DNA of 64,000 nt, taken from Giardia intestinalis. Lineage: Eukaryota. The notes under the pieces are model-generated. The model worked only from the letters and a program-made list of their open reading frames with translations, did no database searches and was not told the DNA's origin. Both the position numbers and the translations under genes were made by a program. Location of the stretch: assembly GCA_000002435.2 (NCBI GenBank), contig CM018792.1, one strand, 5' to 3'. Shown here one piece after another: positions 23,774 through 41,452 of the stretch; position 1 is the first letter of the stretch, and the number at the start of each line of letters is the position of its first letter.

Positions 23774-23873
23774 TGGACCATCAATAAATTGCCCTTTTGT
23801 GGTTGATTGAACAATTTCTAAAAAATGTTGCAATTAAATTCTGCCCACGTCAGCCACAAGTTAGCCTCCGGGG

Positions 23874-24995
23874 ATGATATACTTCGTCTTCTGTTCAGCA
23901 GACTGTAACTTAGCTTGCTCGTATTGTGGCAACTCGCCCGAGGATCTCTGCATGCCTGCCAAGCCAACCTATGAGTTCGAGAAGCTCGCGGAGTTTATTG
24001 CCGGAGACGATGATCCTGTCTTCGTGTTTTACGGTGGAGAGCCCTTGCTGAACCGTCCCTATGTATGCCGCGTCATGGATCGCTTTCCAGACGCCACTTT
24101 TGTGCTGCAATCCAACTGCACGTTGCTCTATGATTTGCCCACCCCCTACCTTAAGAGATTCGCCTGCATACTGCTTTCCATTGATGGCCGCCCGGAAACG
24201 GTTGATGCTTATCGGGGAGAGGGCGTCTACGAAAGGATTGAGAAGAACATCAACGACGCCCGCTCTCGAGGATATACTGGACCGATCGTGGCTCGTATGG
24301 CGTGCTCGTTGAAGACAGACATATATAAGGATGTCCACTACCTCATGTATGAATCTCCGCTGAAGTTTGACGCTGTTTATTGGCAGCTAGATGTCGAGTG
24401 GGACTCTCCCATGAATGCCCGTTGGGGGAACTTCGAGGTCTGGATGCGTCAAACATATATGCCAGGGGTTGACAGGCTCTTCAAGGAATGGCGCGAGGGT
24501 CTGGAGCGTGGAGATGTGAAGGTCATTGTCCCGTTCAACACAATTACAGAGGCATACTTGGATTGCAATGCCATCGATGGTGCAGATCCTTCTGTCCCCA
24601 GACGCGGATACTTGCGCTGCTCAGCTGGGCACAAGGCGGTTAGCATCACAACTGATGGCCGAGTGCTGGCGTGTCCTGTTGCAAGCGGGGAATGCTGGAA
24701 CAACCTCGGAAAGCTAAGTGACTCTCGGACCTCTCTCTTGGGTCAGAAGTCTGTTGGAGGAATGTGTGACGTCTGTGAGGTCCGAGAGGTTTGCGGGGGT
24801 CGCTGCTTATACGCAAACCAAACCCTCTGGTGGGGTGATGATGGACATGCCTTAGTGTGTGAGCTCAACAAGCACCTTATCGCCCTTTGTGAATCGCACT
24901 CTGACAGGGTCCAAACGATGCTTGCAACTGGAAAGATCTCATGGGCTCAGTTCCACTTTCCGAGCGAGCGCTACAGTCTGGAGATCATCCCCTGA
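23874..24995 (+). CDS. radical SAM enzyme with C-terminal SPASM-like auxiliary Fe-S cluster domain (anaerobic sulfatase-maturase / peptide-modifying family, 373 aa)
   Basis: CNLACSYC is the CX3CX2C radical SAM cluster motif. FYGGEPLL is the GGEP SAM-binding motif. C-terminal CSAGHKAVSITTDGRVLACP and CDVCEVREVCGGRC give the SPASM cysteine pattern. The stop overlaps the AGTAAAT poly(A) signal. Confidence 0.8.
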   Translation: MIYFVFCSADCNLACSYCGNSPEDLCMPAKPTYEFEKLAEFIAGDDDPVFVFYGGEPLLNRPYVCRVMDRFPDATFVLQSNCTLLYDLPTPYLKRFACILLSIDGRPETVDAYRGEGVYERIEKNINDARSRGYTGPIVARMACSLKTDIYKDVHYLMYESPLKFDAVYWQLDVEWDSPMNARWGNFEVWMRQTYMPGVDRLFKEWREGLERGDVKVIVPFNTITEAYLDCNAIDGADPSVPRRGYLRCSAGHKAVSITTDGRVLACPVASGECWNNLGKLSDSRTSLLGQKSVGGMCDVCEVREVCGGRCLYANQTLWWGDDGHALVCELNKHLIALCESHSDRVQTMLATGKISWAQFHFPSERYSLEIIP

Positions 24996-25001
24996 GTAAA
25001 T
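24995..25001 (+). promoter_or_regulatory. Giardia-type polyadenylation signal AGTAAAT overlapping the TGA stop of the radical SAM gene
   Basis: The string ccTGAGTAAAttcc contains the consensus AGTRAAY. Confidence 0.5.
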
Positions 25002-40224: not shown

Positions 40225-40312
40225 GCGCTCGCGCGTGGAGCCGGGAGGCAGGCGTGTCCGTATGCCTAACCAATTTGAATTCATTTCCGGGTCTGAAAAG
40301 ACAAGGCCCGCG

Positions 40313-41452
40313 ATGTCCCACCGCAAGTTCTCGTGCTGCCGCAAGGGCAACCTCGGCTACCTCCCCCGCAAGCGCTGCACGCGCGGCCGCGGGCGCTGCA
40401 AGACCTTCCCACCAGACGTCCAGGGCGCGCCCATCCACCTCACGGCCTTCCTCGGCTACAAGGCCGGCTGCACGCACGTCATGCGCTTCATCGACCACCG
40501 CGGCTCGAACCTCCACAACCGCCAGGCCATCGACCAGGCGACAATCATCGACGCCCCGCCAATGATCTGCACGGCCATCATCGGGTACGCCAAGACCCCG
40601 AAGGGCCTCCGCGCCGTGACGACCGTCTGGGCCGCCCACATCGCCGAGCCCGCCATGCGTCGCTTCTACCGCAACTACTTCCACGCGGAGAAGACGGCCT
40701 TCTCGACCTACATGAAGAAGGCCGCCGACGGCACATACATCAAGGAGCAGCTTGGGCGCCTTAAGCAGCACGCTGACGTCATCCGCATTGTCGCCCACAC
40801 CCAGCCTGCCCTGACGCCCCTGAAGCAAAAGAAGGCCGACATCATGGAAATCCAGGTCAACGGCGGAGCGAACGTGGCCGAGAAGGTCGACTATGCGTAC
40901 GCCCTCATGGAGAAGCCGATCTCGATCAAGGACGTCTTCAGCGTGGGAGCACAGATCGACACCATCTCCATCACGCGCGGCCGTGGGTTCGAAGGCGTCG
41001 TCACCCGCTGGGGCGTCACCCGTCTTCCGCGTAAGACCCGCCGCGGAAACCGCAAAGTTGCCTGCATCGGTGCCTGGCACCCGGCCAACGTCCAGTATAC
41101 TGTCGCCCGCGCCGGTCAGATGGGTTACTTCCACCGCACGGACACCAATAAGCAGGTCTTTATGATTGACACAGCGGAGAACCCCAGGTGCTGCACAACG
41201 GAGTTCGATCTGACAGACAAGAGCATCAACCCGGTCGGCGGCTTTGTCAACTACGGCCGCGTCCAGGGAGACTTCATCATGATCAAGGGCACGTGCCCAG
41301 GACCCAAGCGCCGCCCGGTTGTCATGCGCAATGCCCTCCTCCCTCACCGCAACTGTCCTCCGGTCCAGCTTCAGTGGATCAGCACGGCCTCCAAGTTCGG
41401 TCACGGTATCTTCGAGACCGTTGAGGAGCGCAGGCAGTTCTACGCCAAGTAG
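40313..41452 (+). CDS. RPL3: 60S ribosomal protein L3 (uL3)
   Basis: MSHRKFSCCRKGNLGYLPRKRC...HLTAFLGYKAGCTHV...VACIGAWHPANVQYTVARAGQMGYFHRTDTNK...SKFGHGIFETVEERRQFY matches eukaryotic L3 end to end. The true ATG is 40313. The track start 40235 is a GTG. Confidence 0.93.
   Translation: MSHRKFSCCRKGNLGYLPRKRCTRGRGRCKTFPPDVQGAPIHLTAFLGYKAGCTHVMRFIDHRGSNLHNRQAIDQATIIDAPPMICTAIIGYAKTPKGLRAVTTVWAAHIAEPAMRRFYRNYFHAEKTAFSTYMKKAADGTYIKEQLGRLKQHADVIRIVAHTQPALTPLKQKKADIMEIQVNGGANVAEKVDYAYALMEKPISIKDVFSVGAQIDTISITRGRGFEGVVTRWGVTRLPRKTRRGNRKVACIGAWHPANVQYTVARAGQMGYFHRTDTNKQVFMIDTAENPRCCTTEFDLTDKSINPVGGFVNYGRVQGDFIMIKGTCPGPKRRPVVMRNALLPHRNCPPVQLQWISTASKFGHGIFETVEERRQFYAK

What the first reader, a model, noticed from the sequence alone, without database searches (positions are those of the whole stretch)
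23874..24995. Bacterial-type radical SAM/SPASM enzyme embedded among eukaryotic housekeeping genes
The protein carries the canonical CX3CX2C radical SAM motif (CNLACSYC) and the GGEP SAM-binding motif. It also has a C-terminal twitch/SPASM-like cysteine array (C...C, then CxxCxxxxCxxxC). That combination is typical of prokaryotic anaerobic sulfatase-maturating enzymes and peptide (RiPP) maturases, and is rare in eukaryotes. It sits between IleRS and RPS10 with a Giardia poly(A) signal overlapping its stop. It is therefore a bona fide nuclear gene and not contamination, and a strong candidate for an anciently laterally acquired anaerobe gene. No small Cys-rich precursor peptide ORF is evident next to it. 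Its substrate is therefore open: a formylglycine-type modification of a sulfatase-like protein, or modification of cysteine-rich surface proteins, are both speculative.
Basis: partly seen in the sequence, partly recalled or inferred. Interest (0 to 1): 0.6.

Follow-up and report, generated by a model that had tools for sequence, protein, structure and literature searches.

The report
Archaeal-type radical SAM/SPASM enzyme in Giardia
The gene is real and already annotated in Giardia. It encodes an iron-sulfur "radical SAM" enzyme of an uncharacterised family that is otherwise almost entirely archaeal, not bacterial, and that is shared by many oxygen-avoiding protists; what it modifies is unknown.

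Summary
ORF 23874-24995 (+) encodes a 373-aa radical SAM protein with CNLACSYC, GGEP and a complete seven-Cys SPASM array, between IleRS and eS10, with AGTAAAT overlapping the stop.

The interpretation needs correcting:
- **Already known.** The protein is identical to XP_001705220.1 ("AstB/chuR-related protein", G. intestinalis WB; GL50803_16519 by a published orthologue table).
- **Family.** It is a full-length member of NCBIfam TIGR04084 (rSAM_AF0577; 332 bits, cutoff 225). It fails the anSME model (36 vs 349) and every RiPP-maturase model.
- **Archaeal, not bacterial.** The 80 best loci from species-representative prokaryotic genomes are all archaeal. The one bacterial copy found nests inside the eukaryotic clade.
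- **Old in Giardia's lineage.** Orthologues occur across metamonads, in Archamoebae and in one fungus. Giardia's copy lies in a metamonad clade (ML bootstrap 94-95) that largely tracks the species tree. Synteny with G. muris is conserved, composition matches the host, and dN/dS is 0.018.
- **Source.** The nearest relative is an uncultured archaeal lineage (75%). Deeper nodes are unresolved.
- **No partner.** 80 archaeal loci show no conserved neighbour or precursor ORF, and the protein has no RRE.

It is most likely a trans-acting, CteB/anSME-like protein modifier. The substrate is unknown.

The parts
23874..24995 (+). Complete intron-less CDS (373 aa plus TGA stop) for a TIGR04084-family radical SAM/SPASM protein. 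Identical to XP_001705220.1 / A8BRX1 (G. intestinalis WB 'AstB/chuR-related protein').
23904..23927 (+). Codons for C11-N-L-A-C15-S-Y-C18, the CX3CX2C motif that binds the SAM-cleaving [4Fe-4S] cluster.
   Evidence: Read directly from the sequence. Conserved in 104-106 of 114 family members; the rest are N-terminally truncated entries.
24033..24044 (+). Codons for G54-G-E-P57, the SAM-binding 'GGE' motif.
   Evidence: Invariant in alignment A1.
24618..24860 (+). SPASM domain, residues 249-329, with seven Cys (C249, C267, C298, C301, C307, C311, C329) for two auxiliary [4Fe-4S] clusters.
   Evidence: TIGR04085 at residues 249-316, 27.8 bits vs cutoff 27. Six Cys invariant in 114 sequences. The seven Cys align with the corresponding Cys of CteB 5wgg.
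24981..24992 (+). C-terminal tail E370-I-I-P373. E, I372 and P are invariant across the aligned archaeal, bacterial and eukaryotic members; the role of this tail is unknown.
24995..25001 (+). AGTAAAT, matching the Giardia polyadenylation consensus AGTRAAY and overlapping the stop codon.
   Evidence: Its role as a poly(A) signal rests on established knowledge of Giardia mRNAs and was not tested here.
23813..23841 (+). AT-rich stretch (aatttctaaaaaatgttgcaattaaattc) 33-61 nt upstream of the ATG; a candidate Giardia-type short promoter.
   Evidence: Read from the sequence. Inference only.

Best explanation
The ORF is a functional, expressed nuclear Giardia gene. By a published orthologue table it is GL50803_16519. 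It encodes a cytosolic enzyme with three [4Fe-4S] clusters that belongs to the uncharacterised family TIGR04084 (rSAM_AF0577).

Origin. The family is essentially archaeal. Giardia's copy descends from a gene that was already present in the common ancestor of Fornicata, Preaxostyla and barthelonids, and it has been inherited vertically since then. The closest relatives sampled are in an uncultured archaeal lineage ('archX': L002, L083, L085). A second eukaryotic clade (Parabasalia, Anaeramoeba, Archamoebae, one fungus) probably has a separate archaeal source, or arose by transfer between eukaryotes.

Mechanism, inferred by homology with CteB and anSME. The N-terminal cluster reductively cleaves SAM to a 5'-deoxyadenosyl radical. 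That radical abstracts a hydrogen atom from a residue of a protein or peptide substrate. The two SPASM clusters take up the electron and/or bind the substrate. The seven-Cys arrangement matches CteB, where one auxiliary cluster has an open site that binds a substrate cysteine. The product would be a thioether cross-link or an oxidised side chain.

The enzyme has no RRE domain, and in 80 archaeal loci it has no conserved neighbour. The substrate is therefore encoded elsewhere and is recognised directly, as anSME recognises sulfatases. It is probably something present in both archaea and anaerobic eukaryotes.

Shown: identity, family, architecture, distribution, age and selection. Inferred: the chemistry. 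Unknown: the substrate.
For: Family and architecture: TIGR04084 332 bits vs cutoff 225, over the full length. The seven-Cys SPASM array is conserved. The AF2 model has pLDDT 90. Best folds are CteB 5wgg and anSMEcpe 4k36-39, TM 0.69-0.70. Profile against PDB: CteB E 7e-30, anSME E 1e-24, with the alignment starting at CteB residue 101, after the ~100 N-terminal residues that hold its RRE (by published structure).

Archaeal family: the 80 best GTDB-genome loci are all archaeal, and named hits are archaeal apart from one Leptospiraceae MAG.

Eukaryotic distribution.

Phylogeny (own ML code): Giardia clade 94-95%, Fornicata 90-92%, diplomonads 94-97%, Giardia clade + archX 75% (RELL 0.83), second eukaryotic clade 99-100%.

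Long residence and function: synteny with G. muris; GC3 0.603 vs 0.577 +/- 0.11 and codon-usage rank 13 of 30; dN/dS 0.018; the Spironucleus orthologue EST47432.1 is transcribed and induced by oxygen, log2FC 2.3 (PMC6397501).

No cis partner: no neighbour family occurs in more than 5 of 80 loci; the most frequent Pfam family among 145 immediate neighbours occurs 4 times; there is no conserved small ORF.

Cytosolic: the CX3CX2C motif is at residue 11 in most eukaryotic copies.
Against: No member of TIGR04084 has a published function in the library searched, so the chemistry and the protein-substrate claim rest only on resemblance to CteB and anSME at 16-21% identity. Some SPASM enzymes act on small molecules, such as AhbD and NirJ. 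The backbone of the family tree is unresolved, and NNI searches ended in many local optima. The archX sister relationship has only moderate support (75%). The direction of transfer between archX and eukaryotes is inferred from parsimony. The Blattamonas and Leptospiraceae positions conflict mildly with the species tree. The substitution model was derived from BLOSUM62 and is site-homogeneous.
Confidence: 0.6

Rival explanations
1. One reading: a bacterial anaerobe's anSME-type or RiPP-maturase gene was transferred laterally into Giardia. It makes formylglycine on a sulfatase-like protein or cross-links Cys-rich surface proteins.
For: anSMEcpe is among the best structural matches, TM 0.70. The old annotation 'AstB/chuR-related' reflects this resemblance. 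A VSP-like high-cysteine protein gene lies about 6 kb downstream.
Against: TIGR03942 (anSME) scores 35.9 vs cutoff 349, and PapB, QhpD and the other maturase models all fall far below their cutoffs. The family is archaeal, and the single bacterial member nests within eukaryotes. There is no sulfatase in the window. There is no RRE, precursor or conserved neighbour. VSPs are restricted to Giardia (general knowledge), whereas the enzyme is conserved in archaea and in distant protists.
Confidence: 0.05
2. Vertical archaeal heritage: the gene was inherited from the Asgard-related ancestor of eukaryotes, was present in LECA, and has been lost from nearly all aerobic lineages.
For: Asgard proteins (Njord, Heimdall, Hod, Atabey) rank at the top by similarity. 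The best trees of the first dataset unite all eukaryotes. Monophyly is not rejected: dlnL 14-15 +/- 34, RELL 0.30-0.49. Inside the eukaryotic clades the branching partly mirrors organismal groups, for example fungus + Archamoebae at 82-92%.
Against: Bootstrap support for all eukaryotes together is only 16-38%. The best tree of the larger dataset separates the two eukaryotic clades. The second eukaryotic clade shares a site-specific acidic insertion with a Bathyarchaeia/methanogen subgroup, which the Giardia clade and archX lack. archX carries TiaS and so is a true archaeon, and it branches next to the Giardia clade only. The distribution is confined to anaerobes known for sharing transferred genes. 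Similarity to Asgard proteins exceeds that to DHVE2 or Bathyarchaeia by only 1-3%.
Confidence: 0.1
3. It acts on a small molecule or cofactor rather than a protein, as the SPASM/twitch enzymes AhbD, NirJ, BtrN and BlsE do. That would be some anaerobic metabolic step common to archaea and anaerobic protists.
For: The absence of any cis-encoded peptide or RRE fits a non-peptide substrate equally well. AhbD, NirJ and BlsE appear among the weaker hits.
Against: The best sequence and fold matches are all protein or peptide modifiers (CteB, anSME, PapB, QhpD, TigE, SkfB, SuiB). No conserved metabolic neighbour was found.
Confidence: 0.2
4. It is the missing oxygen-independent deoxyhypusine hydroxylase acting on aIF5A/eIF5A.
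For: Archaea lack DOHH, yet hypusine is reported in Crenarchaea such as Thermoproteus tenax and Pyrodictium occultum (PMC5178350), both strict anaerobes by general knowledge. The family is common in Thermoproteota. One archaeal contig has DHS 7 kb from the rSAM gene, beside an arginine-decarboxylase-like gene and TiaS.
Against: DHS occurs within 6 kb of the rSAM gene in 0 of 80 archaeal loci. The family is also abundant in Thermoplasmata MAGs, although Thermoplasmales were reported to contain mostly deoxyhypusine. Entamoeba lacks DOHH (PMC7909649) and did not appear among the homologues found here. No precedent for such a reaction was examined. The idea is speculation of my own.
Confidence: 0.03

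Closest known systems
NCBIfam TIGR04084 (rSAM_AF0577), 'TIGR04084 family radical SAM/SPASM domain-containing protein'
   Same: Full-length match above the curated cutoff. Same length, motifs, seven-Cys SPASM array and C-terminal E-x-I-P tail. 34-43% identity to archaeal members.
   Different: Nothing structural. The Giardia protein is a eukaryotic member of a family that is otherwise almost wholly archaeal. No experimentally described function for the family was found.
CteB (PDB 5wgg/5why), sactipeptide thioether synthase of Clostridium thermocellum
   Same: Best sequence-profile hit (E 7e-30) and best fold hit (TM 0.69). The same seven-Cys SPASM pattern aligns residue for residue.
   Different: CteB has a roughly 100-residue N-terminal RRE that binds a leader peptide, and it is encoded next to its precursor CteA. 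The Giardia protein starts 10 residues before the cluster motif and has no precursor nearby. Identity is only about 21%.
anSMEcpe (PDB 4k36-4k39), anaerobic sulfatase-maturating enzyme
   Same: Similar size (370 aa), no RRE, acts on a separately encoded protein. TM 0.70. Three [4Fe-4S] clusters.
   Different: The protein fails the anSME equivalog model (36 vs 349 bits) at 16-18% identity. By my recollection of the anSME structure paper, its auxiliary clusters are fully ligated by eight Cys, whereas only seven C-terminal Cys are conserved here. No sulfatase is present in the window.
PapB / QhpD-type thioether-forming radical SAM/SPASM maturases
   Same: These are the next-best NCBIfam hits (55 and 48 bits), and QhpD modifies a protein subunit rather than a small RiPP.
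   Different: Scores are far below the cutoffs (340 and 453), and their partner genes are absent.

Membership tests
Radical SAM superfamily (PF04055) | CX3CX2C cluster motif and a Pfam score above the gathering threshold | tested here: met
   C11/C15/C18; 36.4 bits vs 29.5
Radical SAM superfamily (PF04055) | SAM-binding GGE motif and partial TIM-barrel fold | tested here: met
   G54-G-E-P is invariant. The AF2 model matches radical SAM cores.
Radical SAM superfamily (PF04055) | Reductive cleavage of SAM to the 5'-deoxyadenosyl radical | not testable with these tools
   Needs anaerobically reconstituted protein.
SPASM domain (TIGR04085 / PF13186) | Seven-Cys motif CX9-15GX4C ... CX2CX5CX3C ... 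C | tested here: met
   C249-X12-G-X4-C267, C298-X2-C301-X5-C307-X3-C311, C329
SPASM domain (TIGR04085 / PF13186) | Profile score above the cutoff | tested here: met
   TIGR04085 27.8 vs 27, a marginal pass. PF13186 gave no hit for this protein but is recorded for some family members.
SPASM domain (TIGR04085 / PF13186) | Two auxiliary [4Fe-4S] clusters are actually bound | not testable with these tools
   Needs Fe/S quantification, EPR or a structure.
TIGR04084 (rSAM_AF0577) | Whole-protein score above the curated cutoff, end-to-end match | tested here: met
   332.1 vs 225; protein residues 5-373 on profile positions 1-347 of 347
Anaerobic sulfatase-maturating enzyme (TIGR03942) | Equivalog score above the cutoff | tested here: not met
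   35.9 vs 349.45
Anaerobic sulfatase-maturating enzyme (TIGR03942) | A Cys/Ser-type sulfatase substrate in the genome or neighbourhood | tested here: inconclusive
   None among the annotated window genes and none recurrent in 80 archaeal loci. The whole Giardia genome could not be searched.
RiPP maturases of the sacti-/ranthipeptide type (CteB, PapB, SCIFF, etc.) | Family model score above the cutoff | tested here: not met
   PapB 55 vs 340; SCIFF maturase 22 vs 425; the others are similar
RiPP maturases of the sacti-/ranthipeptide type (CteB, PapB, SCIFF, etc.) | N-terminal RRE (leader-peptide recognition) domain | tested here: not met
   The cluster motif starts at residue 11, and the alignment to CteB begins at CteB residue 101
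RiPP maturases of the sacti-/ranthipeptide type (CteB, PapB, SCIFF, etc.) | Adjacent precursor-peptide gene | tested here: not met
   Giardia intergenic gaps are 100 and 60 bp. No conserved 15-90 aa ORF lies within 700 bp in 80 archaeal loci.
Vertically inherited eukaryotic radical SAM families (viperin, Elp3, LipA, TYW1) | Best profile or fold match to one of these | tested here: not met
   Viperin and LipA match the core only (TM 0.33-0.36; E 1e-5 to 1e-3) and have no SPASM domain

The most novel reading that the evidence does not exclude
The enzyme is a relic of the archaeal ancestry of eukaryotes. On this reading it was present in LECA and survives only in anaerobic lineages, where it installs, without oxygen, a modification on a protein shared by archaea and eukaryotes. 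An oxygen-independent counterpart of an oxygenase-made modification, such as hypusine hydroxylation on a/eIF5A, would be one example. Eukaryote monophyly near Asgard sequences appears in some of the best ML trees and is not statistically rejected.
Probability: 0.08. Interest if true: 0.8.

Novelty: already known. Interest (0 to 1): 0.35.

Why it matters
The gene is ordinary as a discovery because it is already in the databases, but three things give it some value.

1. TIGR04084 is widespread in archaea: at least 383 loci in species-representative genomes encode a relative. No function for it was found in the literature searched, so Giardia and Spironucleus offer eukaryotic systems in which to find its substrate.
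2. The enzyme is conserved under strong purifying selection in several parasites (Giardia, Spironucleus, Tritrichomonas), and no animal homologue appeared in any search, so it is a conceivable drug target.
3. It corrects a label. It is an archaeal-type gene, not a bacterial one, and it is ancient in metamonads. That adds a case of archaeon-to-eukaryote transfer or retention among anaerobic protists, along with apparent onward transfers to a spirochaete and a fungus.

Tried and rejected
- **Literature.** Searches for TIGR04084, AF0577, AstB/ChuR + Giardia and GL50803_16519 found nothing on function. The only relevant paper was the Spironucleus oxygen-response study.
- **Operon context.** I clustered 954 ORFs from 80 archaeal loci, ran Pfam on 145 immediate neighbours, and searched for small ORFs. 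No conserved partner emerged.
- **Hypusine-hydroxylase idea.** It was prompted by archaea lacking DOHH and by a DHS gene near the rSAM gene in L083. I tested it by scanning all 80 loci with DHS, TiaS and ADC seeds: 0, 1 and 1 hits. I rejected it as a supported explanation and kept it only as a low-probability speculation.
- **L002 as a mis-binned eukaryotic contig.** Rejected. Its relatives L083-L085 carry the archaea-specific TiaS and keep the same gene order.
- **Recent transfer or contamination.** Rejected by synteny, composition and selection.
- **Phylogeny methods.** NJ trees gave unstable deep nodes, so I wrote an ML/NNI program. The deep nodes remained unresolved.
- **Technical failures.** The AFDB fold library was unavailable, and one bootstrap batch timed out.
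Full report
**1. Observation**

The window has an ATG-initiated ORF at 23874-24995 (+) of 373 codons.
- It carries C11-N-L-A-C15-S-Y-C18 and G54-G-E-P57.
- The C-terminal cysteines are C249, C267, C298, C301, C307, C311 and C329. Their spacing is C-X12-G-X4-C ... C-X2-C-X5-C-X3-C ... C. This is the complete seven-Cys SPASM signature, not a shorter 'twitch'.
- In an alignment of 114 relatives, six of these Cys are invariant and C329 is present in 95.
- Upstream lies isoleucyl-tRNA synthetase; downstream lie ribosomal protein eS10 and a Sec23/24-like gene.
- AGTAAAT starts on the last base of the stop codon. The heptamer is not enriched in the window overall (31 found, 26.7 expected), so only its position counts.
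- The intergenic gaps are 100 and 60 bp, too short for a precursor ORF.

**2. Identity**

The protein sequence is identical to XP_001705220.1 / UniProt A8BRX1, the 'AstB/chuR-related protein' of Giardia intestinalis WB. Another Giardia record already calls a cluster member a 'Putative peptide-modifying radical SAM enzyme, AF0577 family protein'.

The Spironucleus salmonicida orthologue is EST47432.1. In PMC6397501 (Table 3) that protein is listed with Giardia orthologues GL50803_16519 and GL50581_358, and it is induced by oxygen exposure (log2FC 2.3). The gene is therefore known and transcribed. No paper in the searchable library discusses its function.

**3. Family**

| Model | Score (bits) | Cutoff | Result |
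|---|---|---|---|
| Pfam Radical_SAM | 36.4 | 29.5 | pass |
| TIGR04084, rSAM_AF0577 | 332.1 (E 3e-99) | 225 | pass, end to end |
| TIGR04085, SPASM domain | 27.8 | 27 | marginal pass |
| TIGR03942, anSME | 35.9 | 349 | fail |
| PapB | 55 | 340 | fail |
| QhpD | 48 | 453 | fail |
| SCIFF maturase | 22 | 425 | fail |

- An AlphaFold2 model built from a 22-sequence alignment is confident (pLDDT 90.1, pTM 0.90).
- Its best solved-structure matches are CteB (5wgg, TM 0.69) and anSMEcpe (4k36-39, TM 0.70). TigE, SkfB and SuiB follow.
- A family profile finds CteB at E 7e-30 and anSME at E 1e-24. The seven SPASM cysteines align with the corresponding cysteines of CteB. The alignment begins at CteB residue 101, after the ~100 N-terminal residues that hold its RRE.
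- The Giardia protein has only 10 residues before its cluster motif, so it has no RRE.

**4. Who else has it**

The 80 best loci from one-genome-per-species prokaryotic collections are all archaeal. They include Njord-, Heimdall-, Hod-, Atabey- and Promethearchaeota, Bathyarchaeia, Thermoplasmatota, DHVE2, Archaeoglobi, Thermoproteota, Korarchaeia, non-ammonia-oxidising Nitrososphaeria and some Methanosarcinales/Methanocellales.

The one bacterial member found is in a Leptospiraceae MAG. Its contig is genuinely bacterial, with Lepto_8Cys, DUF1574 and MBOAT neighbours.

Eukaryotic members:
- **Fornicata:** Giardia muris (75% identity), Hexamita, Spironucleus, Trepomonas, Kipferlia, Ergobibamus, Carpediemonas (two copies).
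- **Preaxostyla:** Blattamonas.
- **Barthelonids:** Barthelona and 'Eukaryota sp. TZLM1-RC'. I recall the latter as Skoliomonas, a barthelonid relative; the tools did not verify this.
- **Parabasalia:** Tritrichomonas foetus and T. musculus.
- **Anaeramoeba ignava.**
- **Archamoebae:** Mastigamoeba and Pelomyxa.
- **Fungi:** an intron-containing gene on a 763-kb contig of a fungal MAG.

'Bacterial-type' is therefore wrong. The family is archaeal, with a set of mostly anaerobic eukaryotic members.

**5. Phylogeny**

No tree software was installed. I wrote a maximum-likelihood program with a rate matrix derived from BLOSUM62, four gamma categories (alpha 0.77), NNI search and many starting trees.

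| Grouping | Dataset 1: 78 taxa, 356 columns, 100 bootstraps | Dataset 2: adds two archX sequences, 88 bootstraps |
|---|---|---|
| Giardia | 100 | not computed |
| Diplomonads | 94 | 97 |
| Fornicata | 90 | 92 |
| Fornicata + Leptospiraceae + Blattamonas | 97 | 97 |
| Giardia-containing clade B (adds barthelonids) | 95 | 94 |
| Clade A (Anaeramoeba, Tritrichomonas group, Archamoebae, fungus) | 100 | 99 |
| Archamoebae + fungus | 82 | 92 |
| archX | not in dataset | 100 |
| Clade B + archX | not in dataset | 75 (RELL 0.83) |
| All eukaryotes together | 16, or about 33 if the archaeal contigs L002/L047 are allowed inside | 31 with archX inside, 7 without |

- The best tree of dataset 1 unites all eukaryotes. 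The best tree of dataset 2 does not.
- The two hypotheses differ by 14-15 +/- 34 log-likelihood units, which is not significant.
- archX is a real archaeal lineage. Its contigs carry TiaS, which is archaea-specific, and keep the gene order rSAM, arginine-decarboxylase-like gene, TiaS.
- Clade A shares a 7-residue acidic insertion (ENFDIEDLS) just after the cluster motif. A Bathyarchaeia/Methanocellales/Methanosarcinales subgroup has a 14-residue acidic insertion at the same site. Clade B and archX lack it and share G-(G/N)-T-P-E-D..M-P. This favours two archaeal sources.
- Similarity to Asgard proteins is the highest (42-51%), but it exceeds that to DHVE2 or Bathyarchaeia by only 1-3 points.

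Firm conclusion: Giardia's gene goes back at least to the common ancestor of Fornicata, Preaxostyla and barthelonids, and the family it came from is archaeal. The exact donor, and whether there were one or two acquisitions, remain open.

**6. Residence and constraint in Giardia**

- G. muris has the same order: IleRS, rSAM, eS10, Sec24.
- GC is 0.528 and GC3 is 0.603, against a window mean GC3 of 0.577 +/- 0.11. The codon-usage distance ranks 13th of 30 genes.
- Against an assemblage-B-like allele, dN is 0.024 and dS 1.31, giving dN/dS 0.018.
- Most eukaryotic copies start 10 residues before the cluster motif, so there is no organelle presequence. All of them end in E-x-I-P, as the archaeal copies do.

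**7. Function**

In 80 archaeal loci no neighbouring family occurs in more than 5 loci. The commonest Pfam family among 145 immediate neighbours occurs 4 times. No small ORF is conserved beside the gene. The enzyme therefore works on something encoded elsewhere.

Three things point to a protein-modifying enzyme that recognises its target directly, as anSME does: its closest sequence and fold relatives are protein or peptide modifiers, it has no RRE, and it has CteB's seven-Cys pattern. Thioether formation or side-chain oxidation is the likeliest chemistry. This is inference from homology at about 20% identity, and a small-molecule substrate is not excluded.

I considered that it could be the unknown oxygen-independent deoxyhypusine hydroxylase. 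Archaea lack DOHH, yet some (Thermoproteus tenax and Pyrodictium occultum, strict anaerobes by general knowledge) contain hypusine (PMC5178350). One archX contig has deoxyhypusine synthase 7 kb away. However, none of the 80 other loci has DHS within 6 kb, and the family's distribution fits only loosely, so this stays a speculation.

**8. Verdict**

The feature is real and the motif reading was accurate, but the gene is already annotated. It is archaeal-type rather than bacterial-type, and it is neither an anSME nor a RiPP maturase by the membership tests. It is an old, vertically inherited metamonad gene, not a Giardia peculiarity. What remains of interest is the unknown substrate of a widespread archaeal family, and the unresolved question of how anaerobic eukaryotes obtained the gene.

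Noticed in passing
L082:8001-9364: An intron-containing TIGR04084 homologue (386 aa from a 1,364-nt gene range) on a 763-kb contig of a MAG of the ascomycete Cirrosporium novae-zelandiae, near a NACHT-domain gene. It groups with Archamoebae (ML bootstrap 82-92). It is the one member found in a fungus, outside the anaerobic protist groups.
   Followed up: partly
L081:8001-9095: The only bacterial member found (a Leptospiraceae MAG, on a genuinely bacterial contig) nests inside the metamonad clade, next to Fornicata and Blattamonas (bootstrap 97). This suggests eukaryote-to-bacterium transfer. A hemerythrin gene lies immediately downstream.
   Followed up: partly
L083:8440-17723; also L084, L085, L002: An uncultured archaeal lineage keeps the gene order radical SAM, arginine-decarboxylase-like gene, TiaS (tRNA-Ile2 agmatidine synthetase). 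In L083 a deoxyhypusine synthase gene lies about 7 kb away. The association is not seen in 80 other archaeal loci.
   Followed up: yes
L019:7314-9746 and L028:7403-9835: In a Hodarchaeota and a Heimdallarchaeota genome the gene next to the radical SAM gene encodes elongation factor 2 (GTP_EFTU, EFG_IV and EFG_C domains). The two loci are closely related, so this counts as a single observation.
   Followed up: no
window:24981-24992: The last four residues, E-I-I-P, form a tail whose E, second I and P are invariant in the aligned archaeal, bacterial and eukaryotic members. This is unusual conservation for a C-terminus, and its role is unknown.
   Followed up: partly
alignment (Giardia residues 19-27 region): Anaeramoeba, Tritrichomonas, Archamoebae and the fungus share a 7-residue acidic insertion (ENFDIEDLS). 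Some Bathyarchaeia, Methanocellaceae and Methanosarcinales members have a 14-residue acidic insertion at the same site.
   Followed up: partly
window:31090-35937 (-): A 1,615-aa VSP-like high-cysteine protein (Pfam VSP and EGF) lies about 6 kb downstream of the radical SAM gene. No link between the two was found.
   Followed up: no
window:36532-37239 (+) and 40262-41452 (+): The ribosomal protein genes uL30 and uL3 have very high GC3 (0.83 and 0.85) against a window mean of 0.58. This probably reflects codon bias in highly expressed genes.
   Followed up: no
P0140 and P0367 (Carpediemonas membranifera): Two nearly identical copies of the gene sit on different large contigs (906 kb and 1,032 kb), which points to a recent duplication.
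   Followed up: no
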